Source: Glaucostegus cemiculus (Eukaryota). From it: 64,000 nucleotides of DNA. The notes beneath the pieces are model-generated. The model saw only the letters and a list, made by a program, of their open reading frames with translations. It was not told where the DNA came from and searched no databases. The position numbers and the translations under genes were made by a program. Positions 34,186-56,900 of the stretch are shown in pieces. The stretch is from contig CDPCPM010000021.1 in the NCBI GenBank assembly GCA_976551045.1, positions 1,736,001 through 1,800,000 on the forward strand. The letters run 5' to 3'. Each line of letters begins with the position of its first letter. Positions within the stretch are counted from its first letter, which is position 1.

Positions 34186-35330
34186 ACACAGTGTCTCTGG
34201 TTTGCTTGAAGTGTCTCAGGAGGGGTTCCCGTGCAGAGCCAGCACACCCCCTGAGGTCACACAGTTTGGCTCGGCTGTCAGCCCCATCACCTGAGTGCTG
34301 TCACACTTCCAGAGGTGCATGGAGGTCTCTGGGAACAGACACAAGTAGAAGAGTCTTCAGAGAACACATCTGCTGTTCCTTCTGCTGTCTGTGCCTTTAC
34401 GAAAATGAGTCACTGCTGGCTTACTTCAGTAATTTATCATTACAGACACATCTTGCATGCACCTCAAGCAGCGTTGTAACTTCAAACACAGTTGGATGAG
34501 TTATTAGGGCCATTGTTCTGTGTCTCCAGTTATGAAACATAAAGAGTCAGTTTTACTCCTACACAATAGTTAGGCGGCTGTTGCGAATGAGCAAGTTTGT
34601 TTCTTGCTCAGATCCTGACTGTTGGCAATTGTTACCTGTAGCTTTGTGCAGGCAGATGAAGCTCCTGGCAAAAGTAGGCCATGCAAATTTGGGTGCCTTC
34701 GTGTCTGAGGATATCTGGTGTCATTTTGACTGGAACTGGACCAGTAAAGCCAGCATGGCTTTTAGTTGCTGCATAGGAGCTGACCTCAATAAAACAGATC
34801 TGCTTTTCTGGTGAGACCAGACCTTTCCACCTGGCTGAACTGGGGTGGTGTGGCCTCCTTTGGCCCCCGACTTTATCCTGCTCCTTTCACAAGCTCAACC
34901 ACTTACCTGGAACCCCTTGAAGCTAAGGCTGTCTGTGGAAAAGAGGGACACGGTATTTCAATGAGACCAGGTGGTTAAAATCTCTGCGGCTTCCTGCTTC
35001 CTCTGCCTTGCAGGCAATCAACTTGCCAATGCGGTACCTTGAGGAACCCTACCTTGAGTTAAAATCCATCAGGTCAACATGCATTTGAGAAGTTGGCAAT
35101 TCCATATTGACGAGCAGCAATGGCTGGTTCACAGCCTCTGGCCGCATCACCGTCACGTACACAGCAGGACCTTTGCTGATTGGGTCCAGGATACTGTAGG
35201 ATTGTGGGTTTCAACTTTGTTTGGTACATTCCATAATGATTGTACCATTGAATAGCTGTTTTAAATGTAAAGGAGAATATGCTAAATAAGGAAGCACTGC
35301 AAAATAAATGTGAAACTGATGCACTCTAGA
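34186..35330 (+). other. Candidate terminal exon (strong acceptor, UTR-like body, AATAAA at 34788 and 35303)
   Basis: TGTTTTTTTTCATTTTTCCGCAG| acceptor; GC-richer, repeat-free sequence follows; the second AATAAA is followed by a GT/T-rich tract. The right boundary is a guess. Confidence 0.35.
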
Positions 35331-36280
35331 TTTGCTTGCTCTGTGTATTTCTTGCAAGGATAACATTATTGAATGGGGTGTCATCATTTTCTGTCAGATT
35401 AATTGCAGATAAACTAATGGTGTAAAAACTGAAAGATGCTAATCACCAAATGGTGATCTCTCCACTAAGTTTCCTGATATTTTGCTTTTCAGAGATCCGA
35501 GGCAAGGATAGGCTGTGCATGGGTGGTAGAACGACCTGAAGTTAACCTTGGCGACTGAAAAAGAATAGCTGAAAAAGGTAATTTTTTTTCCTAATACAAT
35601 TCTTTCCTTTTCAGTATTGGTTGACTTTCCAGAGTAAATCAAGTAAAGATCTGAGCTGACTGTTTTGGTTCCTGTCGTAAATCTTTTTAAGATTAATGTT
35701 TTTGTTTTTATCCTCACCTCTTTGATACAGCGCTGGCAGGGAAAGTAATCACACTCTGTAAATTGAAAAAGAAGTGAACTGAGTACTTTAAGGGTGTAAA
35801 ACGGAGATTATAGACTTCTCCACTCTGCTCCCACTTTAACATTGTCTCTGCCAGATCATTGCACTAAGCCTACATGCGACAAAATGGTTCGAGCAGGAAG
35901 AGGGAAATGGTGTATCAAATAAATTGATTTTTCAGGAGCTGGTTGAAGGCAGTGAAGAGGTGCTGTGGGCATTGAATGAGAGAGCAAGGGGGAAAAGGGA
36001 GAGCGTACAGGAGGAATAGTAAAAGGATGAGAAACTTACAAATTTTAAGGAGATCAGCAGTGAAAAGGAAACAAATCTCTCCACTAATAAGGACAGCCAC
36101 GGGATTATCCCCTCTTGGGATCATGTTACCCATTCCATCCACAAGACAGAACAGGCATTCAGGAGGTGAAGAACATAAAGGGAAATTGGAATGTGTGAAA
36201 ATCGTCAGTTTATATATTGTTTAATCCAATGCAGAGCGAATTATTCTAAAAATATTACAGTTCCTTAGATGTACTTTACC

Positions 36281-36602
36281 ATGAGGGGCATAGGTAAGGT
36301 CGATGTACAGTCTTTTTATCAGGGCTGGGGAATCAAGAACTAGAGGACATAGGTTTAGGGTGAGGGGTGAGAGGTTTAATAAGAACCTGAGGGGCAACTT
36401 TTTCACCCAGAGGATGGTCAGTATACGGAAGGAGCTACCAGAGGAAGTCTTTGAGGCAGGTACATTAGCAACATTTAAAAGGCACTTGGACAGGTACATG
36501 GATAGGAAAGGTTCAGAGGGGTCTGGGCCGAATATAAGCTGATGGGATGAGAGATGTGAATCTTGGTTGGCATGGACCATTTGGGCTAAAGGGCCTGATT
36601 CT
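36281..36602 (+). mobile_element. CR1 LINE 3' end, well preserved
   Basis: ORF 36303-36542 reads ESRTRGHRFRVRGERFNKNLRGNFFTQRMVSIRKELPEEVFEAGTLATFKRHLDRYMD, the typical CR1 ORF2 C-terminus. Confidence 0.93.
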
Positions 36603-38414
36603 AAAAGCAGTTGCTGAGATTTAATTTAAGATTTACAATGGCCATTTGTTACAAAAAATGTATTTTGTTATGGAGCCGGATAAGCTGTGGTAACCAAGGA
36701 ACAGTATTATTATTTACAGGACTTGTTTTGGACCCTAACTGTTGTGACTCAGGCTCTCCCTTATTGTTTTCAGTCAGTTTGAAGCTAGCATTAGGCTTTG
36801 CTAGGCTGATATCATTGTTGGTCAACGCTATGTAAATAGGAATAGAAGCAATTGAATGGTTCTGCTGCATGGCTTGAAGAAGTAATGTTGTAATGTCATT
36901 TGAGCATGATGGAGGAATGTGACGGGATCTTTATCTTGAGGTACCTGCTCCTGATGACTATCCAATAAATCCTGCTAAATGATGCACGAGTGGATGTTGG
37001 GAAAGGTTTGGCACTATTTCCTTTAAGGCTGAGTTGGCCAAAAATGCTGATATTCTGCACACATAGAACGGCTTCTCGGAGTGAGTATTGCAAGGCCGAT
37101 TGTCAGCAGAGGTCCACACCTCACACTTCCGCAAACGGGGATCAAGAGACTGACAAAATGAATAACCTGTCAGCGGTTTCTGTGTGATTTCAATCTGTCA
37201 CTTATTTCCACAAATGTAATGATCTAGGAATGGGAAGTGGTACTTTAAGCACTGAAGATATGGAATATGCATTCCTTTCCAGCACCCCAGGGTAATAATA
37301 GAAGCACATGAGGGAATAGAAGGACATTTCAGTTCTACTGAAATAGCATACTTCTTCATATTTTGCCACTGAATGAATAATTTAGTGCAATATATTTCAA
37401 GTTCCTAACAAAATTGTTATTTAAAGCAAAGAAGGTGAAATCCATTGTCTTAATTGCAAGGTGTTAAGCTTATAAATTTAAATAGAGTCAGCACTTGAAG
37501 GAGAAACAAAGCACACAGTGATTACTGGAAGCAGTAAGGTGTGGTTTCTGTTTAAGGTAAAGACCTTGGTGTGTTGCAAAAGACAGTTCCTCCAGAGGTA
37601 TTTTTCACATTGGCATTTTGAAAGCTTAGTTTAGCCATGATTCTATGTAGATAGCTCCATAAAGAACTTACTTTGTTTGCACCCCTCTTTAAGTTGCCCA
37701 TCCTTTCAATAACGATTTATGTGTACTTATTTATTCACTGCAAAATAAATGACTGAACAGTGTAAAATACCTTCAGGCCAAAGATATGAATTGATCAGTG
37801 CAAAGACTGGCATAAGGAAAGGATGAGATCATTAGCTGACAAATTGTGGGAATAGGCCACTGAAGTAGAATGGATCCATATTATTTTAGGCCTAACTATT
37901 GGATCATACCAGCCCAAGTTCATGGTTTTATAAAGAGGGTTCTCACACAAATGCAGTGTCGACATTATAGTGTTGAACCAATGATGCATCTATCATCTCT
38001 CTGATTTATTCAAGCCCTCTGCAGGCCATTTAGCAGCTGTAAAATAGTCATCAAGTTGAGAGGGTCACTGGCTGGTAGAGACTATCTGGTAGAGAAGTTA
38101 ACTAAGACTTCCTTGCATGACGGTCCAATATATATTTAATGCCAACATTTTGGAAATTGTCAAAGTAAGCATCTCCATCCTAAAGTGGCTCACTGTGGCA
38201 TTAGTCCCATCTGCCTGCACTACTGCTTGATGGGGATATTAAAGATCCCAAGGCTCAATTTGAAGACCAAGGGCATTATTGCAGCAAACTGACACATTCC
38301 TTATTCAATGGGCACTTCTAAAACATGAAATTAATGCAGCATTATTTTAAGTGTTACTTCTGCCTTTCGACCATGCAAAAAGTGCATTTCTACAATTGCC
38401 TTCCGAACAGCCAT

Positions 38415-38605
38415 CACTAACAAGTGCCATACCATCCAATACCATACTGCACCATACCAGTGCCATTACCATCCTGCCCCACTAACAAGTGCCATACCAC
38501 CCAAAACCATCCTGTGCCCTACCAGTGCATACCATCCTGTCCACTAACAAATGCCATACCATCCAATGCAATTGCGTTGGTGGTATGGTATTTGTTAGTG
38601 GGCAG
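38415..38605. repeat. ~63-bp tandem repeat (about 2.5 units) ending in a near-perfect palindrome
   Basis: CACTAACAARTGCCATACCA starts at 38415, 38480 and 38542; 38572-38605 is the inverted copy of 38537-38571. Confidence 0.9.
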
Positions 38606-39489
38606 AGAGCACTGATTGGGATATCCAATCCATGGACAAGAGCATTCCCCCCAGGAATTCAGCAACACTGCACCTTGGAATACAATTATAATGGGGAAGG
38701 ACGAAAAATCGTTGTCTCTTATTCACATCGTCATGCTGATTTTTGAAATTTAGGGATGAAATTTCTAATTTCTCATGACTTGGTACAAATCCAGAAACAG
38801 CAATGTAAGTTGTGCCCTCTCAGATTCTGATATTCTTTCCACTAAAATGACTGGACAGAAAACCATAAGCCAGGAAGGGAATGTGGGCTCCAGGCATGTG
38901 TCGAGAATCCGCTCATCAGAATCTTTTGCCTTTGGACTATAAACTCTCCACTTGCAGCAAAATGCCAAAAAAAATCAGCATTACAGTTTGACTGTGGAAA
39001 TCTTTTCTGAATGCTTCTTGTTTAGATGGAAGTAACTGTACAGTAAACTGGTGCACTGACATTTCATTGCCATGCACATTGCGTAAGTGCAGTGGTTTGA
39101 CATCTTGTTTCTGCTAGCTTGGACTTGAGCATTTTTTTTAAGCAAGGCAGAGGCAGGCAGCCAACTAGTTACACAACAGAATTAGTGATGATCTCTCTCT
39201 TACAGACAGTGGAAATGTTCATCTATTGTACTTAAGCATACAGTAAGTATTCTACAAGAGAAAATGTGAGTCAGTACCTTTTCAAAACCTCACTTGCACG
39301 AATGTGCCCGTTTCCAAGCTAATCTGAATCACAAAGTTAGCGTGAACTCCCTTTGCTGACACCTCAAACACTTTGCTTGAAACGCGTGCTGCATTCATCC
39401 AACTTTAAAACCATTAACCTGTACCATTCAAATCATCCTTGTACTTCAAGTCTTAATTTTTCAGAAGAATCTTTAAAGCAAAGTCCCTT

Positions 39490-39750
39490 ATGCTCTCTCA
39501 GGTAGTTTTAAAAATCTCTGGCACTATTTTGAAAAGGACTAGCGCAGTTCTCTTTGTCCTTGTTAACATGCATTCCTCAGTCAACACCACTAAACAAACT
39601 GACTAGTTATCACATTGTTCTTTGTGGGATCTGTGGTGTATGCAATAGGGCTGCCACATTTCCTACATTACAACAGCGATTACACTTCAAAGGTAGCTGT
39701 AAAGCCGAGATCATTAAAGATGCAATGTAAATGGGAGCTTTTCTTTCATA
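39490..39750 (+). mobile_element. DeuSINE/SacSINE1-like SINE 3' half
   Basis: TATCACATTGTTCTTTGTGGGATCT...GCTGCCACATTTCCTACATTACAACAGCGATTACACTTCAAAG. Confidence 0.8.
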
Positions 39751-40024
39751 AAAGTGTGGCCTACTGTTTGCATCCTTTCAGATTAGGAAAGTGCTGCAGC
39801 CTCGATTATGTAACCTTTGGGGCCGCCCATTCCAGAGGTTATGGCAAGTTACAAGCCATAATTAGTGCCTTGTATCAAAGTCAAATGCGTGGAATCCAGA
39901 AGTAGGGCATCATTAACATAAAATGACTGTTGAATTCAAAGAGGAGTTTAGGAGAAATTTACTTACCCAGAGCACTTGGAATGTCGAACAATCTAATGCA
40001 GAAGGAATATAGCACGTTGCACAT

Positions 40025-40222
40025 TCTTCATTCAAAGATGTGCAGGTTGGTAGATAGACTGGCCACTGTAAATTGCACCTAGAGTGTAGGTGAGTGGTGG
40101 AGTTTCAGAGGAGTTGATGGAAATATGGGGAGAATGAATTAGGATTGGTGTACGGTTAGTGTGAATGGGTGCTTGATGGTCAGCATGGACTGGATGGGCT
40201 GCAAGGCCAGTTTCCATGCTCT
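40025..40222 (+). mobile_element. V-SINE/HE1-like SINE 3' half
   Basis: CAAAGATGTGCAGGTTGGTAG..TGGCCACTGTAAATTGC...GATGGGCTGCAAGGCCAGTTTCCATGCT; similar to 42130-42470. Confidence 0.75.
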
Positions 40223-41311
40223 AGGGGACTGCGTGGGAATTAATAGTAATGTAGATGACTAAGGCTGTCTCTGATTCATCTATGCAAAGTCACATCACAA
40301 TCAAAGAGGCTAGAGCTTATCAGCCTGATACCAGACCTAACGATTTGTTCAAAATTGGATACTAAGACAAAGTGGCATCACAAATCATCCACTGCCTTCG
40401 GGTTCTCAGTACAAGAGTGACTCACAAATGCATTGTCCTACACAACAGGCAAAATGATCCAAAAAGCAAGGATGCATTAAGCAAAAGATTTAAAGATATT
40501 TGTTTACAGCATGTTAGGTCAGTGTACATAAGCTAACATTGAAGTCAGTATTTTAAGTGTTAGGCTATAGTTAAAATTATATTTGGGATTTCTATTCATA
40601 CTGAACATATCGTAGAATCAAAGTTTCTCCTGCCACCCAGCAAGTATTAAATAGGTCATTTTAATCTGCTTCTGCTGTGCATTCATGCCAGAGTTTTATC
40701 AGGGCATTGGGCTAGAAACACTCTCATATGGTGCAGTCAAGCTGAAAGAGGCTTTTCCACCTGAAGGGAGAAGAGCAAAAAAAATAATAAATGCATACGC
40801 CTTTTGAAATATGGGGTGGCATAGAAATATGCCAGCCTTGCACTGATACCATTGCTAACCCTTCTCAGAAAGTGCAATGAATTCTGTAAAATGGAAGAGA
40901 AGGGACAGAACTCATTTGTTGGAACAAAATTAGCACACAAATGATGAATTTTTAAACACGATGCAAAAGGTATTAAATTTAACTCACAAGCTGTTTTGAG
41001 GGGTGGTATGAGCTTTAGCCATTTGGTGGAGGAAGATGGTGGCAGACAAATCTTCTCGGACATCATATGTACACCCTGCTATGTAGATTAAGCAGCAGCA
41101 CTGACTTGCTTCTATCTAGTGGCTCTGGGCAGAATTGCCCCATTCTCCTGACCGGGAATCAAGGACCGGCATTCTCAACCCTGAGGAAAAGCTTGTCTGA
41201 ATCAGTCCAGATGGCTTTTCTTAGATAACAGTACAGGAGATATTAATCAACTGGTATTGTTTATGAGTTTTGGGTTTTATTATTGTAGAACTGAGGAAGG
41301 AAAAGGAATTT

Positions 41312-41563
41312 GGGGCGGCACGATAGCGTCATGGTTAGCACAAGGCTGTTACAGCGCCAGCGGTTGGGGTTCGATTCCCGTCACTGACCGTAAGGAGTTT
41401 GTACATTCTCCCGTGTCTGCGTGGGTTTCCTCCGGGTGCTCCGGTTTCCTCCCACATTCTAAAGACATACGGGTAGGTTAATTTGGGGTTTAAAATGGGC
41501 GGCGCGGACTCGTTGGGCCGAAAGGGCCTGTTACCACACTGTAAATATATTTATTTATTTATT
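41312..41563 (+). mobile_element. Young full-length tRNA-derived V-SINE/HE1-like SINE
   Basis: GGGGCGGCACGATAGCG head, B box GGTTCGATTCC, V core GTGGGTTTCCTCCGGGTGCTCCGGTTTCCTCCCACA, many CpGs retained, (TTTA)n end. Confidence 0.92.
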
Positions 41564-42129
41564 TTATAATAATTAATCATCTTTGACATCACTCGATGAC
41601 TTAATCCTTGCTGCTGATGTCTTCAGAGTAGAATTTAGATTGTCGAATGGAAAATTAACAACAATATTATTTAAACAAAAAGTTATTTTTAAAGTATTTT
41701 AAATTCTCATTTGGCTGTCAGGAGGGCACTGAATGTTTCTTGTTTTTGAAGAAGTGAACTTCCTACTTGACAACCCAATTTCTTTGTGTGAATGCTACAT
41801 AGAGTTTACAGCAGAGAAATAGGCTGAGGGGCCCGTGTGCTGGTCCTTATCTACAGAAGCCTCTTCTGCCTTTATTCTCACTTTCTCTAGATACCCTTCT
41901 CTGATGCTGATGTATTAGTTGCTGCATTATGCCTCCATGAGGTGTTTTCACATACTTTATCGGAAAGATACTGCTGTTGACCTTCCTTCCGATTATACTT
42001 GGGATCTATTTCCATTGATATTAGTCATAAAGAGAGCATTAACATGCAGCTAAAGTATTGAAGACCCAGCTACGTGGACTAAGTCAATTTGGTCCACTCT
42101 TGATGAACTTCTCTGCCAAAATGAAGTGC

Positions 42130-42470
42130 TAAGCCCTGGGCAAAACAGTAGAAGTCCTTCTGCAAAGCTCCAAAAACCCAGGTTCAGTCCTTATCTCTGG
42201 CATTGTCTGTGCCGAGTCTGTACATTCTTCGCTGACCACATGGGTTTCCCCCTCGGTGCTCTGGTTTCCTGCCACATGCCAAAGATGTGCAGCTTGGGAG
42301 GTTAATTGGCCACCATAAATAGCCACTAGTGTGTAGGCATGCGGTCGAATCTGGGGAGCATTGATGGGAATGTAGGGAGAATACGTTACAGGGAAAATTA
42401 GTGGGGAATGGCAGTGCTCAGTGAGTTGGCACAAACTCGATGGACTGAAGTGGCCTCCTGTGATGGAAGG
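42130..42470 (+). mobile_element. Older V-SINE/HE1-like SINE
   Basis: CCAGGTTCAGTCC B-box remnant; TGGGTTTCCCCCTCGGTGCTCTGGTTTCCTGCCACATGCCAAAGATGTG core. Confidence 0.8.
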
Positions 42471-42629
42471 AACTAAAGACCTGACCTCTTTTGATTCAAT
42501 ATCCTCGGAAGAGTTCTCTCCACCTGAAATGTCAAGAGCAAAAGAGTAATGGATGTATAAAACAAACGAAAATACTATTGTAATAATGAATAACTTGAAA
42601 TTAGAGAATTGTCTTTAATGTGCAACAGA

Positions 42630-43146
42630 TGTAACGGACTACTGAGACCAGTTCTGGGCATCAAACCTTAGGAAGGATATGTTATACTTTGCTGCATTAC
42701 CTCAGACATTTAACAGAATGATAGCTACACTCCCAAGAGTTGAACTATACAATTTCACAAACTATTTGCTGCAATTTAGAAGGCTGGGGAGGATTTGATG
42801 GAAGTTTTATTTTAAGATATGACTGGGAATTGTGATAGGGGACAGAGAGAAACCATTCCTGCTGGCTGGGATATTTAGGGCTTGGGCAAATGTTTATTAA
42901 TTGGAGGCCGTCTTTCAGGAGTGAAGGGACTGCCACATAGAGGGTGAGAGAGGTTTAGAAATTGCTTCTCTGGATGGCAATTGATGCCAGGCCATTTGCT
43001 AATTTTAACTTTGAGCTTTATAGATTTTCAATCAGGAATATGTAGACATGGTGAGCACATGGATTAAGTAACTGATTAGCCATGGTCTTATTAAATCGTT
43101 GAACAGGTCTACTGGGCCAAATAATCTGCCAGGTTCTATGTTCCTT
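42630..43146 (+). mobile_element. CR1 LINE 3' part, diverged
   Basis: CAGTTCTGGGCATCAAACCTTAGGAAGGATAT (QFW...LRKD), GGATTTGATGGAAGTTTTA, and a CR1-type tail. Confidence 0.7.
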
Positions 43147-45434
43147 GTCATAGCATGGAGGGGTGAAATCAATGTTATTTAACATTTCTTGGGATTGACC
43201 TCAAGGTTAATATGTAGATAAAGCAAAGTTATAGCTCTGGATATGCCTACACAATAGTATTTCAGCGGGGGGGTGGGGTTTACCATTTTCTGGAAGGTAA
43301 TCTATGCTGTGAGCTGGTATGAGTATCCACTTTTCTGGCTGAAAGAAGTTTTGAACAGCTTTAAACCAGCATCCCATCCCTGCAGTGGGCACAACCCTGA
43401 GACTTGGCACAACTGGCACGAATTGTGTGCTTTCACCATGCCCATAAGGGCAGTCAACGTGAGACATGGAACAGCAATTCATTCCTGTAATGTCGTGTAG
43501 CAACTTTGGGAGGTTGAGATTTAGCCACACTGTCGGGGATAGGGAGGGTCAGGAGAACCTCTGCATTGTAAGTAATCAATACATCATTACAGTGTCCATC
43601 TATAAAGGAAAGCTCTCTCATTTTGCCAGCTTGTCGAAGTTGACATTTTAAGTACTTGTACATAGATAAATTTGTAATTGTAATCATAAACCAGTAAGCG
43701 CGCAATCAAAATGGTGATACAAATCACTCAAAAATCACTGGTGACAAATGCAATTATCGACTCTTCTGTGATTTTGAAGCCTGCCCTCATCTTGCATTGC
43801 CTTGATGTCACACAGAAGATTACAAGTCAAAGGTGCACCCAGTGCAAGAGATGATGGTAGCAAAGTTCATGTTTTACAGTGAAGATAATGATAGGGACTT
43901 TGATGCCTCTTCCTCCTCTTCCCCTTGGTAAATATGAAGGCTGGGACTGTGTTACTTCACAGTAGAGGCTGAAAGCATATCACGATCTAAGTCGATGTGA
44001 TGGTTCTCTTTATGATGATTAGAAAAGAAACATCCAGAGAATTTCAAAAGCAACATGGAAGATTTAACTTAATGAACCAAAAAACCTTTATAATGAGTAT
44101 GATTATAGTTTTATTGTGCAGAATATCTTTATTTATCAGATCTTCCCAGATTTTTGAAAAATATCATTGTCACAACACATGACAATTTCTCGCAGTCTTT
44201 TCTGTTGAAACAAACTGAATAACAGGAAAAGCAATTTTGGAAGAGGAATCATCGTCACCAGAATGAAGTACAGCATCATGATTTTAGATTTGCACTTCTT
44301 GGTAGCCTGCTTTTCATCTGTGAGAAAGTCAGCATTATATTCCAAAGAAAATATTGTGACTCACACAAGGTTGGATGGTTGTATCATTTAACATTTCAGT
44401 GATGCTCAATTAGTAGGTCCAATTGCTGCCTCGCTCTTCAGTTTGAGTTTGTTCCAGTTTCATCATGCAGCTTGACAGGTTTAATTTCAATACAGATTTC
44501 CATGTTCAGACATTGAGCATACTCTGCAACATCTTACAGTTGCAATTAGTCTAATCTCACAGATCAAAGGAAGCAGACTGCTGCAAAGCGAGAAAGCCTA
44601 GGGTGCAATTAATGATGGGCAGCTAATCCACTTGAGAAATTACTCCAGTCAGAAACTAATTCTTTGTACTTTGAAGTCATGTTCCTTTGCAAAATTGGTC
44701 AGCACACCTCTTTTTAGTCCATTAAAGTGTTTCAGTGCCATTCCCTGAGAATCAATTGGGTGATTTCTACCACTTAAAGAATATTGATGAACATTTTCTT
44801 CACATTTACTCAGTGTTGAACAAGCCATTGTAAGGATGGTTAATATACAGGGTCTTTACAGGCATTATTCTTCCAGTTCAATGCGTTAACTCTTGGTATA
44901 ATTTTTCTCAGTCATTTTATATCTGTTTATTTTCACTTGCTTAATTTCCAAAATAACTTTTTGATAGGAGTGGAAGGCACAAAAAGAAAATGGTCGGCCT
45001 AAAAGTTAGCTCTGCTCCTTCTAGTATATTATTTTGATTCATAGTGGAGAAGACAGACATAATTACTTTGAAAATCAACAATTGAACCATATTGACCCAT
45101 CTCACAGATATGAGGCTGAACAGTCCCACTCTTAATTTGTTTCCTATGATCTGGTTACATTCCCTCCTCCCCCTGGCTCCCTACGTAAGACTTATATGGA
45201 GAAATTTCACTGAGGATCAACAGATGTATCATTATAATGCACTGTGTGATTACATTCAGTTACCATTTACCTGCTAAAAACAAAAATCTTGCTGGTACAC
45301 AAGTCTTAAAAGTCTTAAGTTGCTGTATGCTAAGTACCTACAAAAATATCTAAGTTCCACTGTTTGATAGCATGCCCTAGTTTGCATTCAATACTTTCTG
45401 TGCGAATAGTTTCCCAGAAACTAGGGCACTTACA

Positions 45435-45590
45435 AAGTAACAGAATCTTGCAACATGGAAGTCAAGAATGACCAATCTAGTTCTCCACTCTAGCTCTAGA
45501 TTTTTTTTACTTCTTCCAAGTGCTTTGTAAATTTCCTTTCAAAAGTTACCATTGAACCTGCATCCGTCACCCTGCGTGGGAACAATTTTC
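45435..45590 (-). mobile_element. CR1-type 3' fragment, antisense
   Basis: TTCCTTTCAAAAGTTACCATTGAACCTGCATCCGTCACCCTG resembles the antisense CR1 3' end. Confidence 0.5.
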
Positions 45591-46739
45591 ACTAATGCAC
45601 ATTCCTTGCAAACAAGAGGAAGGTCTGAAATGAAAGACAAGGTAGGGCCAGGTTTACTTTTAATATCGGTTGGGACCGAGCATCACTGCTCCTAGTGAAT
45701 ATCAAAATCCTTTTGTCATTTGGGTTTCTCTTGAAGCTCACCAACTCCCCACATGGAAATCAGCTCATCTTAAAGCAGCTCTTTATGATCCACCTATGCA
45801 GACCATATACAAGAGCTTTCTACAGCCTTGTAACATAATTCAAACATTACTGAAGCCCATTACAAGTCAGTGGTGAGCTCCCTTTAGACCATTGTAGCTC
45901 AGCAAAGCCTCTTGCTATCACACTAAATTGTTTAATAGCATCACAGCAGGATTATCGACAACAGGGATGGGCACAGAATAGCGGCTTGTTCAGCTTCATT
46001 TAATGGAGTTTGCCTTCCTGTTAATGGATCTTGTACAGCATTTGATGAACTGAATATAGTTGCTGATAACTAACAGATGGATCCCAACGACGAGACCTCA
46101 TTGCAAACTTAACTCGTTAATATTTAAGTAGGGTGAAGCTAACTGCAAATACTAAGTGCTTTCTATTCCTAATTTTAAACATTCCAAAGAGATCCCTTCT
46201 AGCTTCCAAAAGGTTTGTGTGTTATCGACTTGCTGAAACTTGAAAGGATTCATGAGGTCTGAAGTAATACGAGATGTTCTGCAGGAGATGGGTGTATAAT
46301 CTTTGAATGGTGACTGGGCAACTGGAGCATCTGACCAAGGAAAGAGTCACCTAACTGGTTTAGAAGGAAAATCACCAGCTGTGAAATACCACAAGAGGGG
46401 AAAGAGATCAATTTTTCCAATTTACCCTTCATGGACGGTTACTTTATTTGAATTGGCCACATTCAAATAGTTTCTACATTACAGAATCAGAGCTTCATGA
46501 GTGAAGTCTTGTGATGTGTGCATTAAAAGGCTGCCACATTGGTGGGTGTGGTTCCATAAAGATCTCTCAGCTCTTTGAAGGAGATATATTATAGGCTGCA
46601 TAGTTCCATTTAATGTTTTGCCGTAATGGAGTCAGATCAGTATACAACCTACTATAATTAGCTCGTTATGTAAAATCTATTCACTGGATTTGTGACGAAG
46701 ACTCCCCTTGCTAACAGTTCTTGTTAGGAATTGGACATG

Positions 46740-46900
46740 GACTTTCAGAATGGAATCAGCCAATCTTGGCTGAGTTGGCAAGAGGACATCAGCAATCGGC
46801 CTCAGTCTCTTGCTGGGATGTGATACCTCCCAAGGTGTAATTGCTCATACTCACTGTTTAAACAGACCCACAAAGAACAGATCACATGGAACCAAAGCAG
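46740..46900 (+). mobile_element. Possible LF-SINE-like ancient SINE fragment
   Basis: GCTGAGTTGGC...CAATCGGCCTCAGT...TGTGATACCTCCC...ACTCACTGTTTA resembles recalled LF-SINE-like blocks; weak. Confidence 0.35.
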
Positions 46901-48639
46901 GGATCATGGACTCTGGGAGGGGGTTAGGGATTAAGTAGGATGTGTTGTCAGGTGGGGTGGTGGTGGCAGGGTCGGTTGTGAAGGTGGAAGATCAAGGGCA
47001 AATTGCACATCGAGGCACAAGGCAAATAACTAATTAATACCGTTCAGTGATGTCACCGAACATACAATTCTCAAAGTATCCATTCAGAGATTTTAAAGAT
47101 CTGCTCCCAGATAAAAATTCCAAATCCCAAGTTAGACCCAGGATGAACAAGAGATAGTGCCAAAGCACGTGAACTTCGACTTAACTGTGCAAGGAACATA
47201 AAACAATTAGATTTCTCTGCGCATTGATTTCAGTCAACATCGATGATAAATCAGATTTTAGTTTCATTGTCAGAAATGAGGGAATAGAAAAGCCTGAGAT
47301 AACCATCAGTTGGGGCTAACTGACCTCACATCTGTACTGCTGGCAGATGTTTAGCACATTGATATTTTTTTTCTGCAGCATTACAGTAAGTGTGCAGCTG
47401 CCTGGGAACATTGCATTTCTTTGCTTGCAGTAGCAAAATGTTCCCACCTCAATCAGAGCATTAGCAAAGCTGCTTGATTCTGGGTAGAGGGTTTAAAAAT
47501 AATCACTCTGCAGAATGGAACATATTAACTCAAACGACCCTCCTGGCAGTGGGACTGTATAATCCTTAAAATAGCACAACCACATTGAGACGTACAATCC
47601 TGGCTTTCTTGAGTGTGGGTGGAATGTGTCTTGTTAATGCTGCTTCAGATTCCTTTTACATGGGATGTTCTCATGGAAATACATCAGTCAAGCTGCTCCC
47701 AGAGGAACATGGCATTGAATGAATCATTTTTAAAAAAATTAAATGTTTTTAATTTTCAAAGTGTCAACACTTAACATTAGGCCAGAGCCAAGAGTTCTAA
47801 AGGAGAGATTTGACTCCTAACCAGAAAGTTCCAATCTCCAAGTGCTGGCCTGGATGATGGTTGAATTCTTTCTTTGTCCCTGGGTAGATTTTCCTTGTTC
47901 TTTTCCAGACAAAGATGTGGAGAAGGAGGACAGTGGGCAGAACCACCTGTTCTTTACAGCAGCTCATTGCTCTGTAACTTCTTCCCACAGCTTTGCTACT
48001 GGCTGTTACCAGAGAGGGCCATGCTGAAGGCTCTTCAGTGCAGAAGGGGAAAATGGAAGGAATGAAATGACTTCAGGAAAGGACGCTAATCATTTTAACT
48101 AGTTGGTCTGGAAGATGTAAAAAGAAAACAAATGCTAATCCTGTTGTAGTTTCTGCGGCTGTAGCTGTGATCGAGGATTAACTGTAGAAATATCCTAAGC
48201 TCTTAATAATTAAAAAGCAAAAGAGATCACGTTGATCCCTACAGGAACATAGATGCAATCAGGGATAGAAGCAAAGATGATTTTTTTTTCCCTCCCTGGG
48301 TATAAATCTCAGAGCAGCAAATTAAGGGCAGAATATCTGAGCTGTGCCACACCGCACGATCCGGGGGAGATGCTCCATTTCACACACTTGCCCTCCAGAC
48401 GGACTGGTTTAGACAGTTGCTTCAATTTGGCACAGGTCGCTAGCCATTGCCATGACAGCTGACTTTAGCAGTTCAAGGACCCTGTGGATATCATGATAAA
48501 CACAAACTGCTCCCAGATTCACTTCTGTCACTTCCAGTTTGATATCAGATTTCGGGCAAGGATGGCTAGGGAGGGGAGGGGAGGGAATGAGGTGGTTGGT
48601 GATTGGAGGAAGAGTATGTGCAGTACAAGAATTTACCTG

Positions 48640-48838
48640 AGCATTTGTTTCTGCTCAGTTGCTGAGTACATTTGAGATAGGAATCGATACAGTTCTGGTA
48701 ATTCAGGGAATCCAGGGATATTAGAGCTGGTGCTGGAAAGTGGCGTTGGGATCAATCATCAGACATGACTTTATTCAATGGCAGAGCAGGGGCAAGGGAC
48801 TGAGTGGTCCTACCCTGCTCCTATTTCTTGAGTTCTTG
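48640..48838 (+). mobile_element. CR1 3' tail
   Basis: GGAATCGATACAGTTCTGG..AGGGAATCCAGGGATA...AATGGCAGAGCAGGGGCAAGGGACTGAGTGGTCCTACCCTGCTCCTATTTCTTG. Confidence 0.75.
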
Positions 48839-50478
48839 GCTCTGCAATTCTTATTAGAGAAATATTGGAAGATTGGAGCTCTTTTGAGCTGTTTTTAGAG
48901 TTCATGATTTCTATGCAGCAAGGAACAAGGAAGTTCTTGGACTTTTAAGGGAAATTGTATTTCAGTTTTAGTGAGAGCAATGATTTTAATTTTGCATTGC
49001 ATGTGTTTTTGTAATACCTGTTTCTCTACTTATTAATTTCAAACCGTATAAGACTGTATATTTCTATAGATCAATCCCTTTCTAAAAAAACAAGTCTCAA
49101 TCTCTGACTGCTTGTAAACAGGACACATATATGTACTCACAAAATATAAATCTGTTGTGCCTTTACATCATATTTGATCCAAGCACGCTGGTTTCTTGTA
49201 AATATTATATATATAAAACAATAAAATCAAAGACTTAAAGATGCATTAGTATTCACACTTGATAACCACCGTTAAATACACTCAGGTTTCTCTATACCAT
49301 TGATCGTACGTATACTTTAGTTATAGGGTTCCTTGTTTTTCAAACTTAAAACACAGTCCTTCTCTATTCAATCATCAGAAGAAATCTGCATAATAATCAA
49401 AATGCAACTTCCGAATATACTCACTCAGGGACTATCATATACCCACTTCTACCACTCATTGGCCATCAGATTCATTTCATACCGCCAAAGATGATGCATA
49501 ATTATTAATAATTAGCATGATGCAGCATCTTTCCTCAGCCTTTGATGCGGTGCGGGTTTTCCAATTATCTGGTCTCTAAGCAAATGTCTGAAGGTCAGTT
49601 GAGCTGATTGAAATAAGGACTGAAACTTGAGCTGCCACAGAACTCACAGCTGACGGCACACACAGGAAGAGTTCAGTGTGAGCTGCGGTGGTGAGCAAGA
49701 ATCATCAGCTCTGCTGCAAATGATTCCACTAAAGGAAAAGCTTCAGTTGGCTGCAATTTAAATGCACAACTTTTAGCCTCCTCACAGGTGTGATCTGAAG
49801 GCTACTCTGTAAGACTCAGACGAGAAAGTTTTTGCCACCTGAGGGCTACAAGATGAACACTGTTCACCTGAGGTGGTTTGCAAAAGGTTTAATTTGCTAT
49901 TAGAAAAAAAACATGTCCGTTGGAGCGCAGTGTCTGCAGTTTCCAATTCTGTCATATGCCTGAGGAAAGAAGTCTCCACCCAGTAAAAGGGCTTTCACTG
50001 TAACTAGCTTTGCCCATGAACCTGGCTCACAGTTATTCTGTAATAGTTTAGCACAGCTTTGGTTGACCCAGTATTTGGAGCCATCTGTGACTGGGTGCTA
50101 TTCCAGTTTCCATCACATTTGCTTCTCCCTCCAACTGCTCGGACAGCACCTTATTTTCCTCCTCTTGGTTACTTGGAGCAGTGTCCAGGTAGATTAGTCT
50201 TAAAAATTGGCAGGCTCCCGGTTAATGCTAAAGAGTCAGCAACCTCGCGATACCTTCCGCTGCTCTCAGCATTCATAACGTAAATCTCTAAAATGATTTT
50301 CAAATGTGTTATTGAGATGGGTGGAAATCTGAAACAGCGACAAAAGAAGTTCCCAGGCAGAAAGGAAGAGTTGAGCACATATCTGCAGAAGGGAAAAGAC
50401 TGGTGTGGAGTGGAAAATGGCTGGTGTGCTGGAGATTTCATTTTACTTGCACTGCAGTTTCTTTTCTTATCTCCATAG

Positions 50479-50628
50479 GCAACTCATTGCTCCAACCACC
50501 TATGGAAGAGGGCTGTTGAAGGTGGAATTCTTTGCGGCCATGATCGATGCTGTCCCCTGACCGCCTGGCAGGAGGCAGATTTCTGCCGAGCTGGCAGTGG
50601 ATGTTCACTGGGTATCTGCCATTTAGAA
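50479..50628 (+). ncRNA. Candidate 150-nt exon of the miR-181 host transcript
   Basis: Strong acceptor TTTCTTTTCTTATCTCCATAG| and donor GAA|GTGAGT; locally GC-richer; 3 kb upstream of the miRNAs on the same strand. Confidence 0.45.
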
Positions 50629-53600
50629 GTGAGTAGCTTTGTGCATTAAGAATTAGACGTAGCTCATAGCTTCAGACAACTTGGGATGCCTTGCCAACTT
50701 GAACCTAATTAGGCACGATGCCACCAACTCACGTCTACAGCTACTCCTTAAACTCTCTGCTTTGTCATTTCAACAGAACTGCAGCTATATAATATAACAT
50801 AAATCAATCGTCCAAACAGGGAATTATTTTAAAGTTCCGATTGCCAAGCATAATAAAAGTTTACAGGTCTAATGTGCAAAGCAGACAACTGGAACCATTC
50901 CAAAATAGTTGCTCACAATACTCTTCAACAACTTAACGTTGCTTGCTCCCTCCCTCTGCCTCCATCTCCACCCTATCAACACTGCCATTCTGATTCCATC
51001 CCGGAGGGGTAATAATTCAATTTTGACTGGGCTATTTACTGTTTTAAATGTATTTTAGAGACCATTTGGCATTTGAGGGTTCTTGAATATGCTTTAATTG
51101 ATTGTGAAAGTCAGTCATTAGTGCGTTATACTGAAATCTTCCCAGCAAAATACTAAAGGGAAATTACATCTTTAAGCCATTATCTTGGCTGCTGCACCCT
51201 TGCCAGACCTGAACCCTAGAGTGTGAGCAGCAGTTATATTTGAACCTGATCATTAAGGAAGCTATTCCCTGCGTTTGGTGGATTTAAAGCCCCTGTGTTG
51301 GCTAGAAAGAAGCAAACAAATCAAATCTTACTGCGACGACATAAGCGCTGAGAACTGACATTTTCTGTTATCCTCTGAGAATGAACATTAGCTTTGGAAC
51401 AATGTCAAAGCCAAGCTGTTATTCCAAACAATACATTCGGCAGTTTCAGTAATCTAGGCAAGTCTCTTATAAGGCTACCTCAACCCAACACCATTTAAAA
51501 AGGTCAGCATTACCTTTAAAAAAACAATTTTAACCTTAAAAAATGATCAAATGTTGACAGCTGTTGTCAATTGGGTTTCCTTGTTGTTCAGTAAGGAAAA
51601 AAGTTAATCATTATTTCAGTTTGATTTGCTGATGAAACCAAAGTCTTAATTGTGGAGTAATAGTTTAGCTCCTTCTCTGGAGACCTTGAGGAGATGGTCT
51701 ATGTGGACACATCAATTCAATGCCAATAGAGTGTGATGCAATCAGAAGTATTACTTTGTCGATTGGAGGGGAGAGAGAGAAGAGGAAGGACAATGATGAG
51801 CAAACATCAGGTGTTATTAGAAAAGCAGGGATTTCTCTTGGCATATTGGCCGACATTCCTCCCTCATTATCCCTGCCAAAAACACAGTAAGATGACAGTT
51901 GTGCAATATATCCACATTTTATTCATAGCTAATTTCTAAATGTGTTGGATTACAGAAAGGATCCAGGGAATATGACTGAAATCTTTCCATTACTGATCTT
52001 TTTTGCATTCTATGACTAGACTTTCTATGAAAAGTACCAACAGTTTCTATAGAGTAGTTTCATCAATGGTAATAAGTTGTTTTCAAAGCATCTCTGAGAC
52101 TTTCCCAAGTAATTCTGTTCTATTACTGGTCAGGGAGCACTGGGGTCATATTAATAAAATTTAATCATTTATTTTGTTTTACTTCATAAATGAAATTGAA
52201 CATCTTCCTATCATCACCAATCTTGAACAGGGAAGCAAATATTTGTGACTTTACAGGAATACATAACACAGTAGAAATGCTTTCATTGCATTTTGTTTGT
52301 TATAGCAGTGGTTTGAGTCTTGAGTTAACCACTAAAATTTCTTGTGTCTGGGTCACCCAAACCTTAGTCCCTGTTCTGGAAGCTACAGACAAGCAAATCC
52401 TTTATAATTATACACTGTGCACAAACTGTATGAGTGGAAATTTTAAATCATTCCACATCTCCAAATTGGGTTCAAACAACTCACTGGTCCAGTCCGATGC
52501 CTTTGGGTTTATATTCTGCTTTTAAAAGGTCTTATGATCTTATACACTCATGCACACATGCCTGTAACCCACACATTTGTCATCTTTCAATGGAAGGAAG
52601 GTACAGTTGCACAAAAGTTCATAGAAGACCTTGCACAAAGTTGTTAAACTGCCATCATACTGGCTTACTGCCAACTATGTTGCAAATTCATCTCACATCA
52701 TTCTTTAGACCTCAATCCAAATGACAGTCAAATTATTTTTTTTCTGCAGAAAAACCTGCCAGAGCCTTTTTTCTGTATTTAGCCGAAAAAAGCTCCTTGG
52801 GTTTACTCACTGCAAATGCAGGGAATTTACAACTACTTTAACAGATGCCAAGCTGTAACATAAAACCCAGAACCTGAATGGGTCACGCTAACCTACTTTA
52901 CCATAAACAGACTGTAATCATGCAAAACAGCATAATTCGCATGTGCTGTGGTCACCCTGTATGCCATCTAACCACAAAGAACCAAGCTGGTGAAAACTGC
53001 TGTGGGTTAAATATTCTATGTGGATTCTTCCTTTGTGCATACATTTTAAATACGTCGTTTCAACGTCTGTATGATTAATCATCTATTTCCTTTGTGCGGA
53101 TTCCAGACTTTTATCCACAGGCAATGCAGTGTATTAGTCAAAAAGCATGCTATTTGAAAAGGAATTTCTTTGTAAAATGTATTTCTTGCTGTCACCATTG
53201 TTCATTTAATTGCCTTTTCTCCCAAACTTTCCATTCTTAAAAGGTTGATTTTTTTCCTCTCGATGGGAGTGATGGTGGGGGTTAAAGGTGTGGGGGTGGG
53301 GGGGAGTGTTGACGAAAAATGTCTTTCAGTGAAAGCAATCAATCATTGCCTCCTCACATTGTTAGAGCCCTACAGACTGTAATAGCAAGGGGAATTTTTT
53401 GCATGCAAACAGATTTTAAATATTTCTAAAATGATTTATTCAATTAGAGAATGCTCTTTGTGAGCTCCTGGCTCAGAATTCTTGCCATTTTTTTTTGCAG
53501 CTTTAACTGAGTAGAATACCTTTGTGTCAGAAAATTGCAAAAGAATTGCATGCCATAGACAATGAATTAGAGCCTTTTACAAAAATCTCTCAGCTTCTGG

Positions 53601-53638: not shown

Positions 53639-53719
53639 TGGCTTCAGGGAACATTCAACGCTGTCGGTGAGTTTGATGCTATGGAGAAACCATCGACCGT
53701 TGATTGTACCTTGTAGCCA
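53639..53719 (+). ncRNA. mir-181a: microRNA precursor miR-181a (5p 53650-53672; 3p 53689-53710)
   Basis: AACATTCAACGCTGTCGGTGAGT is canonical miR-181a-5p. ACCATCGACCGTTGATTGTACC is miR-181a-3p (a-1 type, old name miR-213). Lower stem TGGCTTCAGGG pairs with CCTTGTAGCCA. Confidence 0.98.
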
Positions 53720-53853
53720 GCCTCTTTCAACTGCCTTTGGGCTAGTTCAGGCCACATAGATTGGTCTGAAACCTATTTTCTGTTTGTTATGACGGATGCT
53801 AACACGATCATTACAGATAATTTCGGGGAATGTGGAAAACAAGTTCCTGCAAA

Positions 53854-53932
53854 GGTCACAATCAACATTCATTGCTGTCGGTGGGTTTAACTATATGGTA
53901 AAGCTCGCTGAACAATGAATGCAACTGTGGCC
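53854..53932 (+). ncRNA. mir-181b: microRNA precursor miR-181b (5p 53864-53886; 3p about 53904-53924)
   Basis: AACATTCATTGCTGTCGGTGGGT is canonical miR-181b-5p. The 3p arm is CTCGCTGAACAATGAATGCAA and the basal stem is GGTCACA/TGTGGCC. It starts 214 nt downstream of miR-181a-5p. Confidence 0.98.
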
Positions 53933-56900
53933 CAGATTTTAGCAACGGCACCTACAGAATCTACATTGGACAAGACAGAGCTGGGATAGGTTATGATCCA
54001 AGGATGACTTGTACAAAGATAATGCTTGTTTATATTTTGCATACTTTCATATGTAGACAAGATATTAGCAATCAATGTTATTTACTCATAATTACTACAA
54101 ATCACGTGATGATAAAACCCTCATCTGGAATTGATCAGTGAACTTAACGCATTTTGTAGCTTTTAACATTGAAACCTGATTTTAACAAATACTCTGTTGC
54201 GACTTCCTGAAAGCCTTGGTCTTGTGACTGAGATGTCAGTTAGAAAGTGGAGATTACAAAAGAGTACCCCGTAGTACAGGCACATTGTGAAAATTACTGA
54301 GTGAACATTCTTTCCAAATCTTTCACCATTGAAAAAGATAAGAATTCCTGTTTGTTATGAAACAGATGTCACAAAGTGAGATGATTTTTGCCAGATGACT
54401 GTAGAAAAGGCCGAACCAGCCTAATGCAAATAAAGGTTCTTTCAAGCATTTGAACTAAATCAAGTATCTGAATAGTTGATCCTAGTTGGAATGGATCAAA
54501 AATGCTTTCTGGTTCAAGCCAGTTGGAGTTTGAGCCATTTGGAGTATTCTTTTCACCCAGTTCCTACTGGACTTGCTAGGCACGACTGGTGTTGAATTCA
54601 GCTGCTCTGTCTGGCTTGGCCCCAACTAAATTAGTTCCCCTATTCGCTGCAGTAATATTACATAATATCAAACAAGCATCACCAATATCTCCAAGAGTCC
54701 CAGCTCAGCTGCAGAGTACACACCATGTCTTTCACCAAATGCTTTCTTTCACTGAACTGTATATTTATGTATGATAAAAATGTAACAGAAAATAAACTTT
54801 GCATCTGTCTTCTTGCAAAAAAGTACTTGAGGCTTCCTTATTCTATACATGTGGCACGTGAAAATGAAGTAGTTATAGTAACTTGCCATAAACTTTATTC
54901 AGTAGGTATACTGATAAAGAAAACGTGCTTTGCTAGTATTTGAAATACTTGAGACATTGGCTGCCAAAACAAATATTTAAGGTGTCATGTTGTACTTTGG
55001 GATGTTCGACTGAGCATATTCTGCACCATTATGCTGGAGATATGATCTCCTTAAATCCAAAGTCTATTCATTTAGTTTCCTTTCATTGACAACTAACTGA
55101 ACTGTCTGCAATATGATTTTCCCTTCCTCGTCCCCTAACACTGTACTGTAACATCTGCTATTGGCTTTAAAGCACTTCGGGATATGCCAAGTTTGTGAAA
55201 GGTGCTTTACATACTTTTTAAAGTTTTTTTATAGTCTTTCAGGCCAGTAGTGTTCATTTTATTCCCTTCCCACTGTCTGAGATTGTGAAACCATCTCAAA
55301 TTCACTTTAATGCACAAAAAAAGAGTTTGTTGCAGAAATCAGGCATTTAAAATAAACCTAATCAAGAAAAATCATGCTTCATCTGCAAGAAATGTATAAA
55401 CCCCAAAGAGGTTATGTGCAAAATAAAGGAGAGAGAGAAATTGAGTAAGGATTTAATTGTTCCTGACCGTATTTGCACTTGGGTTTAACCTTTGTGGAAA
55501 TTATTTTCAAGATTATTCTTTTTATGAAGCAGGTTTGAAGAAGGGAAGATAAATTTTATATAAACTTTTAATGTACGTCTTGAAATCTTAAAAAATTTTG
55601 ACGATCAGTCAGAATTCTTAAAGATTGGAATAAATTACTGAATTTGTTTCATCTCAAGCAAGTATAACTTACAGACTTGCATTGTATTTTATTCTTCATG
55701 GCAAAACTAACAAGTTTAAAACAGAATGCATTTGGTAACTCCAGGCCTGATCCTCAGCATCCTTTCCAATTGTGGATAGTCTCATCAGTTTGCATCATCT
55801 TGTCCTAAGCAATGCCCAGGTACTTACTTCCATTGGGAAATGGGAGCACTGACCAATTTTCAACTCAGCTGTGTTCCAAATCTCCATCCCAGACTAGACA
55901 TACTTCTGGAACTATGTTAGAAACCTTTAGTTAGGACAAAGAATTATATTTAATGTTTTATTATAGAGTTTTATTATATATTTTTTAATGTGTAGTCTGT
56001 TAAAAAGTAATAGATGACATTTAAAATCATATTACATTTGCTGGTATTAGTTGTGTTATCTTTGGTAATATTTAGGATTTATTCCACTGCAATGGTAGAA
56101 AATGCACCATTAGATATAACAAAATTTTAAATATTACAGAAAATCAGTAGTATTTTAATCTGATTTTCCTAAAATGAAAATTATTTGCTTGCTGTATTCT
56201 TTATGCAGACTTAACTTGTTTTAAATGCTTTAATTATACTTTCCATTTGTTTGAATGGTATATTTTTCAATAACTTGAGTTGGCTCATTTAATTAAATTG
56301 TACTTTGCTAACTATTTAACAACTCACCATTGAAGACAATGACAGGGAAGTGATTAGTTGCCTTTGCTCTCACAGAAGAATAATCCAGAACATTTAAAAC
56401 AGACATACCTGTCTTAGATGTTACAATTAAACTCATACCAACACAAATTTTCAGTCACTACTTTAAACTATCTTAAAGCATCACGTACCATTTGTATGGT
56501 TCAGTAAAGTTTGAAAGTTAGCAATGGGGACACCTTGGTAATATTTGGGAGTCCTCCATGAAAATAGAATAGACTGCACTAGAGTTCCTAAAAATAAAAG
56601 ACAGACTGATGTGGTTCAGAGTTACGAGCTGGTTAGACCAAATTTGTATGTGCCCTGCTAAATATTTGGACTGGAAGCCTACTGTCAGTACAGCCCATTG
56701 AAGCAGGCTAGTTTGTAGATGTTAAACATAGTAATATGTGGAATATTAACTACTTAAATATCCCATTTTCGAGTATAACAGATGTGATTGAGAAATCACC
56801 ACAAGGCTGCAAACCCAGTGTTGCTGATTTAGTTCAAATGGAGCAGCAACATTTGTCCCAGGAGCAGACACATTTAATTAGAGATATCCTTTGAAATGAA

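What the first reader, a model, noticed from the sequence alone, without database searches (positions are those of the whole stretch)
53639..53932. Intact miR-181a/miR-181b bicistronic cluster, not shown by the ORF track; paralogue identity open
Seen: two hairpins whose 5p arms start 214 nt apart, each with an exact canonical 5p sequence. Established: jawed vertebrates carry several mir-181 pairs from genome duplications. In human, a-1/b-1 lies near PTPRC/NR5A2, a-2/b-2 is antisense in an NR6A1 intron, and c/d lies near NANOS3. The 3p arms and short spacing resemble a-1/b-1. However, the GGG just before the 181a 5p arm recalls the c-type flank. Inference: this could be a-1/b-1, an ancestral-like c/d orthologue, or an extra chondrichthyan paralogue.
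Basis: partly seen in the sequence, partly recalled or inferred. Interest (0 to 1): 0.7.

Follow-up and report, generated by a model that had tools for sequence, protein, structure and literature searches.

The report
Ordinary miR-181a-1/b-1 microRNA pair
These two hairpins are a real pair of miR-181 microRNA genes lying between the NR5A2 and CD45 (PTPRC) genes, so they are most likely this animal's ordinary copy of the well-known miR-181a-1/b-1 cluster that jawed vertebrates share, not a new or unusual paralogue.

Summary
Observation confirmed: two Rfam mir-181 hairpins (53639-53719, 53853-53934; 76 and 69 bits, cut-off 45.5), 5p arms 214 nt apart, both folding far better than shuffles. Neighbouring genes settle the paralogue question. 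The genome shows three a/b pairs, the number curated for the ancestral jawed vertebrate and the elephant shark. This pair lies 586 kb from the genome's best NR5A2 match and 130 kb from its CD45/PTPRC gene, with a V-ATPase G gene beyond: the a-1/b-1 neighbourhood. The other pairs take the other two known places: one on the opposite strand 94 kb before the NR6A1 DNA-binding exon (a-2/b-2), one 4.6 kb upstream of nanos with CC2D1 beyond (c/d position). The three-G flank is no c-type mark: the c/d-position copy lacks it. Mature small RNAs were not tested. Already known; low interest.

The parts
53639..53719 (+). mir-181a-type hairpin (orthologue of mir-181a-1 by neighbouring genes)
   Evidence: Rfam RF00076 76.1 bits, model 1-83/83; fold z -4.10
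53650..53672 (+). predicted mature miR-181a-5p (ends inferred, not read)
   Evidence: identical over 23 nt to the a-type arms of both other pairs; 17 of the first 22 nt paired
53689..53710 (+). predicted 3p (star) arm of the first hairpin
   Evidence: end placed by the 2-nt overhang rule on the predicted fold, precursor 61 nt; start read
53853..53934 (+). mir-181b-type hairpin (orthologue of mir-181b-1 by neighbouring genes)
   Evidence: Rfam RF00076 68.6 bits, model 1-83/83; fold z -4.41
53864..53886 (+). predicted mature miR-181b-5p (ends inferred, not read)
   Evidence: identical over 23 nt to the b-type arms of both other pairs; 3 differences from the a-type arm, none in the seed
33501..53400 (.). 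upstream non-coding DNA with low, strand-biased RNA coverage in a related organism; possibly intron of the host (primary) transcript
   Evidence: tallied: in 24 non-repeat bins, run X23 summed depth 15.6 (first mate -) against 0.6 (first mate +); strand of the RNA depends on an unrecorded library type

Best explanation
This is a pair of miR-181 hairpin genes between NR5A2 and PTPRC, most likely the orthologue of the vertebrate mir-181a-1/mir-181b-1 cluster. It would work as in mammals: one long non-coding transcript, likely read on the + strand away from NR5A2 and towards PTPRC, carries both hairpins; Drosha/DGCR8 would crop them to precursors of about 61-62 nt, Dicer would release the duplexes, and the 5p strands, which share one seed, would load into Argonaute and repress the same set of mRNAs through their 3' UTRs. 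Shown here: the hairpins, their fold, the three pairs and the flanking genes. Inferred: transcription, processing, targets, and any role in thymocytes or brain as in mouse.
For: Hairpins. Three pairs in the genome: 6 exact motif matches, 0 for the reversed control; 6 Rfam matches. Window = contig C21:1,736,001-1,800,000 (+). Upstream, on the - strand, an NR5A gene at 1.196-1.203 Mb; of the 3 NR5A genes in the genome it scores highest against the same human NR5A2 chain 3tx7_B: 351.9 bits against 259 (C52 gene) and 186.5 (C224 gene). Downstream, on the - strand, a two-domain tyrosine phosphatase at 1.920-1.939 Mb whose 2 tested exons both hit CD45 first (85.5 bits against 62.5 for the next; 63.0 against 59.6); its next relative in the genome is 53% identical, so no second CD45-like exon was seen among 26 matches. 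A V-ATPase G exon follows at 2.155 Mb. Human MIR181A1/B1 lie with PTPRC, ATP6V1G3 and NEK7 on 1q (tables in PMC9318831 and PMC5677966). The other pairs fill the other two known places: C52, - strand, 94 kb before a + strand NR6A1 exon (149 bits against 96 for the next family); C382, 4.6 kb upstream of a nanos frame on the same strand, CC2D1 45 kb further. Human hosts NR6A1 and NANOS3: table 1 of PMC8232258; nanos3-cc2d1a neighbourhood from sharks to human: PMC5932020. Processing signals on the predicted folds: CNNC 18 nt after the 3p end in both hairpins, basal UG at -14 in the first. Human a1/b1 are under 100 bp apart (PMC7139714); here the gap between Rfam matches is 133 nt.
Against: No small-RNA reads were seen, so processing is untested. 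NR5A best-hit alone does not discriminate: the C52 gene (next to NR6A1, so presumably NR5A1) also hits human NR5A2 before SF-1; the call rests on the ranking of scores plus PTPRC. The second CD45 exon wins by only 3.4 bits. Spacing is a poor guide in this genome: the c/d-position pair is 1,628 nt apart and the a-2/b-2 pair 9,223 nt, against about 100 and 1,200 bp in human. Precursor identity does not sort the copies (65-75 of 87 nt). The place and strand of human NR5A2 relative to the cluster are recalled, not from a call. The Rfam genome search scored 57 of about 334,000 first-look candidates, so a very diverged fourth pair is not excluded; it would not change this pair's neighbours.
Confidence: 0.96

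Rival explanations
1. The pair is the orthologue of mammalian mir-181c/d that kept ancestral a/b mature sequences.
Against: The c/d place (nanos 4.6 kb downstream, CC2D1 45 kb further, a mir-23 hairpin on the same contig) holds a different pair, on C382. None of the 4 nanos matches lies on C21. The C382 a-type copy has one G, not three, before its arm.
Confidence: 0.01
2. The pair is an extra, fourth paralogue peculiar to this lineage.
For: The genome search is a lower bound (57 candidates scored). Teleosts can carry four pairs (medaka, PMC7139714).
Against: 3 pairs found by two methods, each in one of the three known neighbourhoods; 3 pairs is the count for the ancestral jawed vertebrate, elephant shark, coelacanth, human and gar in supplementary file 3 of PMC8789304. 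If this pair were extra, the PTPRC neighbourhood would lack its own.
Confidence: 0.01
3. Orthologue of a-1/b-1 by position but silent or decaying, the shared mature sequences being supplied by the other two pairs.
For: The three pairs have identical 5p arms, so mature reads could not tell them apart; upstream RNA coverage is low.
Against: Both 5p arms are unchanged, both stems intact, CNNC motifs in place; the first hairpin has the highest Rfam score of the six. In mouse thymocytes this locus supplies most miR-181a/b (PMC3415433, passages).
Confidence: 0.02

Closest known systems
Mammalian mir-181a-1/mir-181b-1 cluster in MIR181A1HG (human chr 1q32)
   Same: a-type then b-type hairpin, same strand, under 250 nt apart; PTPRC and a V-ATPase G gene on one side, NR5A2 on the other (human neighbours; NR5A2 side recalled).
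   Different: Gap between the hairpins somewhat longer (133 nt against under 100 bp); a G two places before the first 5p arm pairs in the predicted stem where the genome's other two a-type copies are unpaired. Host transcript not defined here.
MirGeneDB Mir-181-P1/P2, three ohnologous pairs (a, b, c) of jawed vertebrates
   Same: Three pairs, as listed for the jawed-vertebrate ancestor and Callorhinchus milii in supplementary file 3 of PMC8789304.
   Different: Which MirGeneDB letter belongs to this pair was not tested; the database itself was not available.
Rfam RF00076 mir-181
   Same: Full-length matches above the gathering score.
   Different: None of note; the family model does not separate paralogues.

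Membership tests
mir-181 family (RF00076) | covariance-model score above the curated cut-off over the full precursor | tested here: met
   76.1 and 68.6 bits, cut-off 45.5, model 1-83
mir-181 family (RF00076) | stable hairpin with the mature sequence on the 5' arm, at least 16 nt paired | tested here: met
   z -4.10 and -4.41; 17 of 22 nt paired in each
bona fide microRNA gene | reads of both arms with uniform 5' ends and 2-nt overhangs | not testable with these tools
bona fide microRNA gene | primary transcript on the hairpin strand | tested here: inconclusive
   strand-biased low coverage upstream in a related organism, library type not recorded
mir-181a-1/b-1 orthologue | PTPRC as neighbouring protein gene downstream | tested here: met
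   CD45-best exons 130-149 kb downstream, opposite strand; the DNA between was not scanned for other genes
mir-181a-1/b-1 orthologue | NR5A2 upstream | tested here: met
   best of the genome's 3 NR5A genes against human NR5A2, 586 kb upstream, opposite strand; the human arrangement on this side is recalled
mir-181a-1/b-1 orthologue | precursors group with a-1 and b-1 in a tree of curated entries | not testable with these tools
   no miRBase or MirGeneDB sequences available
mir-181a-2/b-2 orthologue | antisense within NR6A1 | tested here: not met
   the NR6A1 exon is on C52 beside another pair; the only zf-C4 matches on C21 are the two NR5A exons
mir-181c/d orthologue | just upstream of NANOS3, CC2D1A beyond | tested here: not met
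   that arrangement is on C382 with another pair; 0 of 4 nanos matches on C21

The most novel reading that the evidence does not exclude
The pair is a-1/b-1, but the extra base pair in the lower stem of the first hairpin, found in 1 of the genome's 3 a-type copies, shifts the Drosha cut, so that this locus makes a seed-shifted miR-181a with a different target set in this lineage.
Probability: 0.04. Interest if true: 0.3.

Novelty: already known. Interest (0 to 1): 0.06.

Why it matters
It matters little beyond annotation. It confirms that the NR5A2 - mir-181a-1/b-1 - PTPRC - V-ATPase G block, and the two sister blocks, are intact in this genome, as curated work already implies for jawed vertebrates (PMC8789304). 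The only mildly useful by-product lies outside the window: the pair at the c/d position has plain a/b mature sequences, in line with the published view that c and d are later derivatives of an a/b pair (PMC7139714).

Tried and rejected
1) Three-G flank as a c-type mark: rejected; 1 of 3 a-type copies has it, and not the one at the c/d position. 2) Spacing as a guide: unreliable here (214, 1,628 and 9,223 nt). 3) Precursor identity among the six copies: uninformative (68-71 of 87 nt among a copies, 65-75 among b copies). 4) The NR5A DNA-binding exon as a discriminator: failed its control, as the C52 gene also preferred NR5A2 (91.8 against 90.0 bits for SF-1); replaced by ranking three genes on the hinge/ligand-binding exon. 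5) Sequencing runs: no RNA holder listed. 6) A hidden protein gene: 24 stop-to-stop frames of 100 aa or more in the window; 10 of the 24 were scanned against Pfam, 0 matches. 7) Naming the C382 nanos by the ESM Atlas: Nanos1 0.96, Nanos homolog 3 0.95, not decisive; the name nanos3 rests on the CC2D1 neighbour and on recalled motifs. 8) DCAF15 as a c/d-block marker: it lies on C224, not C382, so it gave no support. 9) Earlier findings: nothing by place or by words. 10) Literature: 10 searches gave no paper devoted to mir-181 neighbourhoods in cartilaginous fish, but the family's three pairs are tabulated in PMC8789304.

Full report
Observation. The sequence at 53639-53934 holds two mir-181 hairpins on the + strand. 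Rfam RF00076 matches 53639-53719 (76.1 bits) and 53853-53934 (68.6 bits) over the whole model, cut-off 45.5; nothing else in the window reaches a gathering score. Both fold much better than 200 shuffles each (z -4.10 and -4.41, 0 of 200 as good), better than their reverse strands. The 5p arms begin at 53650 and 53864, 214 nt apart, and differ at positions 9, 10 and 21 only. On the predicted folds the precursors are 61 and 62 nt, 17 of 22 5p bases pair in each, and a CNNC motif starts 18 nt after each 3p end; the first hairpin has a basal UG at -14 (these motifs as Microprocessor signals are established knowledge, recalled). No protein gene is evident: of 24 frames of 100 aa or more, 10 were scanned with Pfam and none matched.

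Copy number. The window is G000:C21:1,736,001-1,800,000 in a 2.85-Gb genome. An exact motif search found 6 matches, the reversed control 0; the Rfam model found the same 6 (57 of about 334,000 first-look candidates scored, so a lower bound). They form three a-then-b pairs: C21 (214 nt apart), C52 (9,223 nt) and C382 (1,628 nt). All three a-type 5p arms are identical over 23 nt, and so are all three b-type arms. Supplementary file 3 of PMC8789304 (one table row seen, file cut when stored) lists three pairs for the jawed-vertebrate ancestor, elephant shark, coelacanth, human and gar.

Neighbours of the window pair. A nuclear-receptor DNA-binding domain lies on the - strand of C21 at 1.202-1.203 Mb and translates as an NR5A member. 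The genome has 3 NR5A genes by a search with the ligand-binding exon. Against one human NR5A2 chain (3tx7_B) their hinge exons score 351.9 (C21), 259 (C52) and 186.5 bits (C224). All three prefer NR5A2 to SF-1, so best hit alone says little (one search was the control that showed it); the ranking, and the C52 gene's place behind NR6A1, point to C21 as NR5A2. On the other side, five tyrosine-phosphatase exon matches lie on the - strand at 1.920-1.939 Mb. Two were tested and both hit CD45 first: 85.5 against 62.5 bits, and 63.0 against 59.6. The first has no relative above 53% identity among its 25 other matches in the genome. A V-ATPase G exon follows at 2.155 Mb on +. Distances: NR5A2 586 kb upstream, PTPRC 130 kb downstream. 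In human, MIR181A1/B1 are listed with PTPRC, ATP6V1G3 and NEK7 in a 1q deletion (PMC9318831, table passage) and with PTPRC at a GWAS locus (PMC5677966, table passage); NR5A2 on the far side is recalled. I did not scan the DNA between these genes for others.

Neighbours of the other pairs. The C52 pair is on the - strand 94 kb before a + strand exon that hits NR6A1 at 149 bits against 96 for the next family, with an NR5A gene 123 kb further; NR6A1's first exons were not located, so 'intronic' is inferred. The C382 pair is 4.6 kb upstream of a nanos frame on the same strand, with CC2D1 exons 45 kb further and a mir-23 hairpin on the same contig. Human a-2/b-2 and c/d are listed in NR6A1 and NANOS3 (PMC8232258, table 1 passage); nanos3 keeps cc2d1a as a neighbour from sharks to human (PMC5932020, passages and supplement). 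The Atlas did not separate nanos1 from nanos3 for this frame, and CC2D1A was not told from CC2D1B. DCAF15, another member of that block, is on C224. So each of the three known places has its own pair, and the window's pair is a-1/b-1.

The three-G flank. Only the window's a-type copy has three G before its arm; the other two have one. On the predicted fold the base two places before the arm pairs in this copy and not in the other two. It is a private change that tightens the lower stem, not a sign of c ancestry, since the copy at the c/d position lacks it. Whether it alters the Drosha cut is untested; I give that 4%.

Expression. On 33501-53400, three raw RNA runs of a related organism (its DNA contigs align here with several differences per 100 letters) gave mostly repeat reads, equal on both strands; in the 24 non-repeat bins coverage was low and lopsided: summed depth first-mate-minus against plus 3.27/0.38, 1.62/0.61 and 15.61/0.61. 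In most stranded libraries that means RNA on the + strand, the hairpin strand, as expected of a host intron; the library type is not recorded, so an antisense transcript is not excluded.

Mechanism. By orthology (inferred): a long non-coding primary transcript, Drosha and Dicer processing, two 5p guides with one seed. In mouse, three polycistronic transcripts make the family, thymocyte miR-181a/b come mainly from this locus, and Nrarp, Dusp5, Dusp6 and Shp2 are targets (PMC3415433, passages; PMC7503384, passages); the locus also gives most miR-181a/b in brain and retina (PMC7139714, passages). None of this was tested in this animal. miR-181b was already reported in bamboo-shark small RNA (PMC3789328, one passage), and two cartilaginous fish are in MirGeneDB (PMC8728216, passages).

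Taxon. Not determined. Four nanos matches and three NR5A genes fit a cartilaginous fish or another early-branching jawed vertebrate (four nanos in basal vertebrates: PMC5932020).

Papers seen: passages only for 10.1101/2021.09.01.458616 (its supplements were read through the journal version PMC8789304), PMC8232258, PMC5932020, PMC3789328, PMC9318831, PMC5677966, PMC7139714, PMC7503384, PMC3415433 and PMC8728216; all others as search listings only.

Verdict. Observation confirmed; interpretation partly supported; an ordinary mir-181a-1/b-1 orthologue (confidence 0.96); already known; interest 0.06.

Noticed in passing
G000:C382:2,382,576-2,384,284 (-), loci L005, L006: The pair at the mir-181c/d position (nanos 4.6 kb downstream, CC2D1 beyond) has mature 5p arms identical to a and b, and is 1,628 nt apart rather than about 100 bp as in human: this, not the window pair, is the 'ancestral-like c/d' copy.
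   Followed up: partly
G000:C52:4,884,974-4,894,277 (-), loci L003, L004: The a-2/b-2 pair is spread over 9.2 kb (about 1.2 kb in human); its b hairpin has the weakest predicted lower stem of the six (7 of 13 nt paired) and no CNNC at 16-21 nt.
   Followed up: partly
G000:C224:4,105,948-4,118,207 (+), loci L013, L014, L042: A third, more diverged NR5A gene (76% identical to the C21 gene over 78 aa) shares a contig with DCAF15; it may be the NR5A copy of the c/d block that mammals lack (nr5a5-like; name recalled).
   Followed up: partly
G000:C382:2,377,184-2,378,071 (-), L038:7185-8072: The nanos frame beside the C382 pair is 295 codons stop to stop, longer than the frames around the other three nanos matches (133, 177, 254 aa).
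   Followed up: no
window 36157-36820 and 39477-42796: High-copy interspersed repeats (contig depth up to about 830,000, RNA reads on both strands); loose read ends look like a tRNA-derived SINE.
   Followed up: no
window 34900-34915: Five RNA molecules of one run end at 34915, a few bases from a splice-donor-like site on the - strand; duplicates, a start site or an antisense exon are all possible.
   Followed up: partly
G000:C56, C382, C157, C14: Four mir-23 hairpins above the Rfam cut-off, against two in human (recalled).
   Followed up: no
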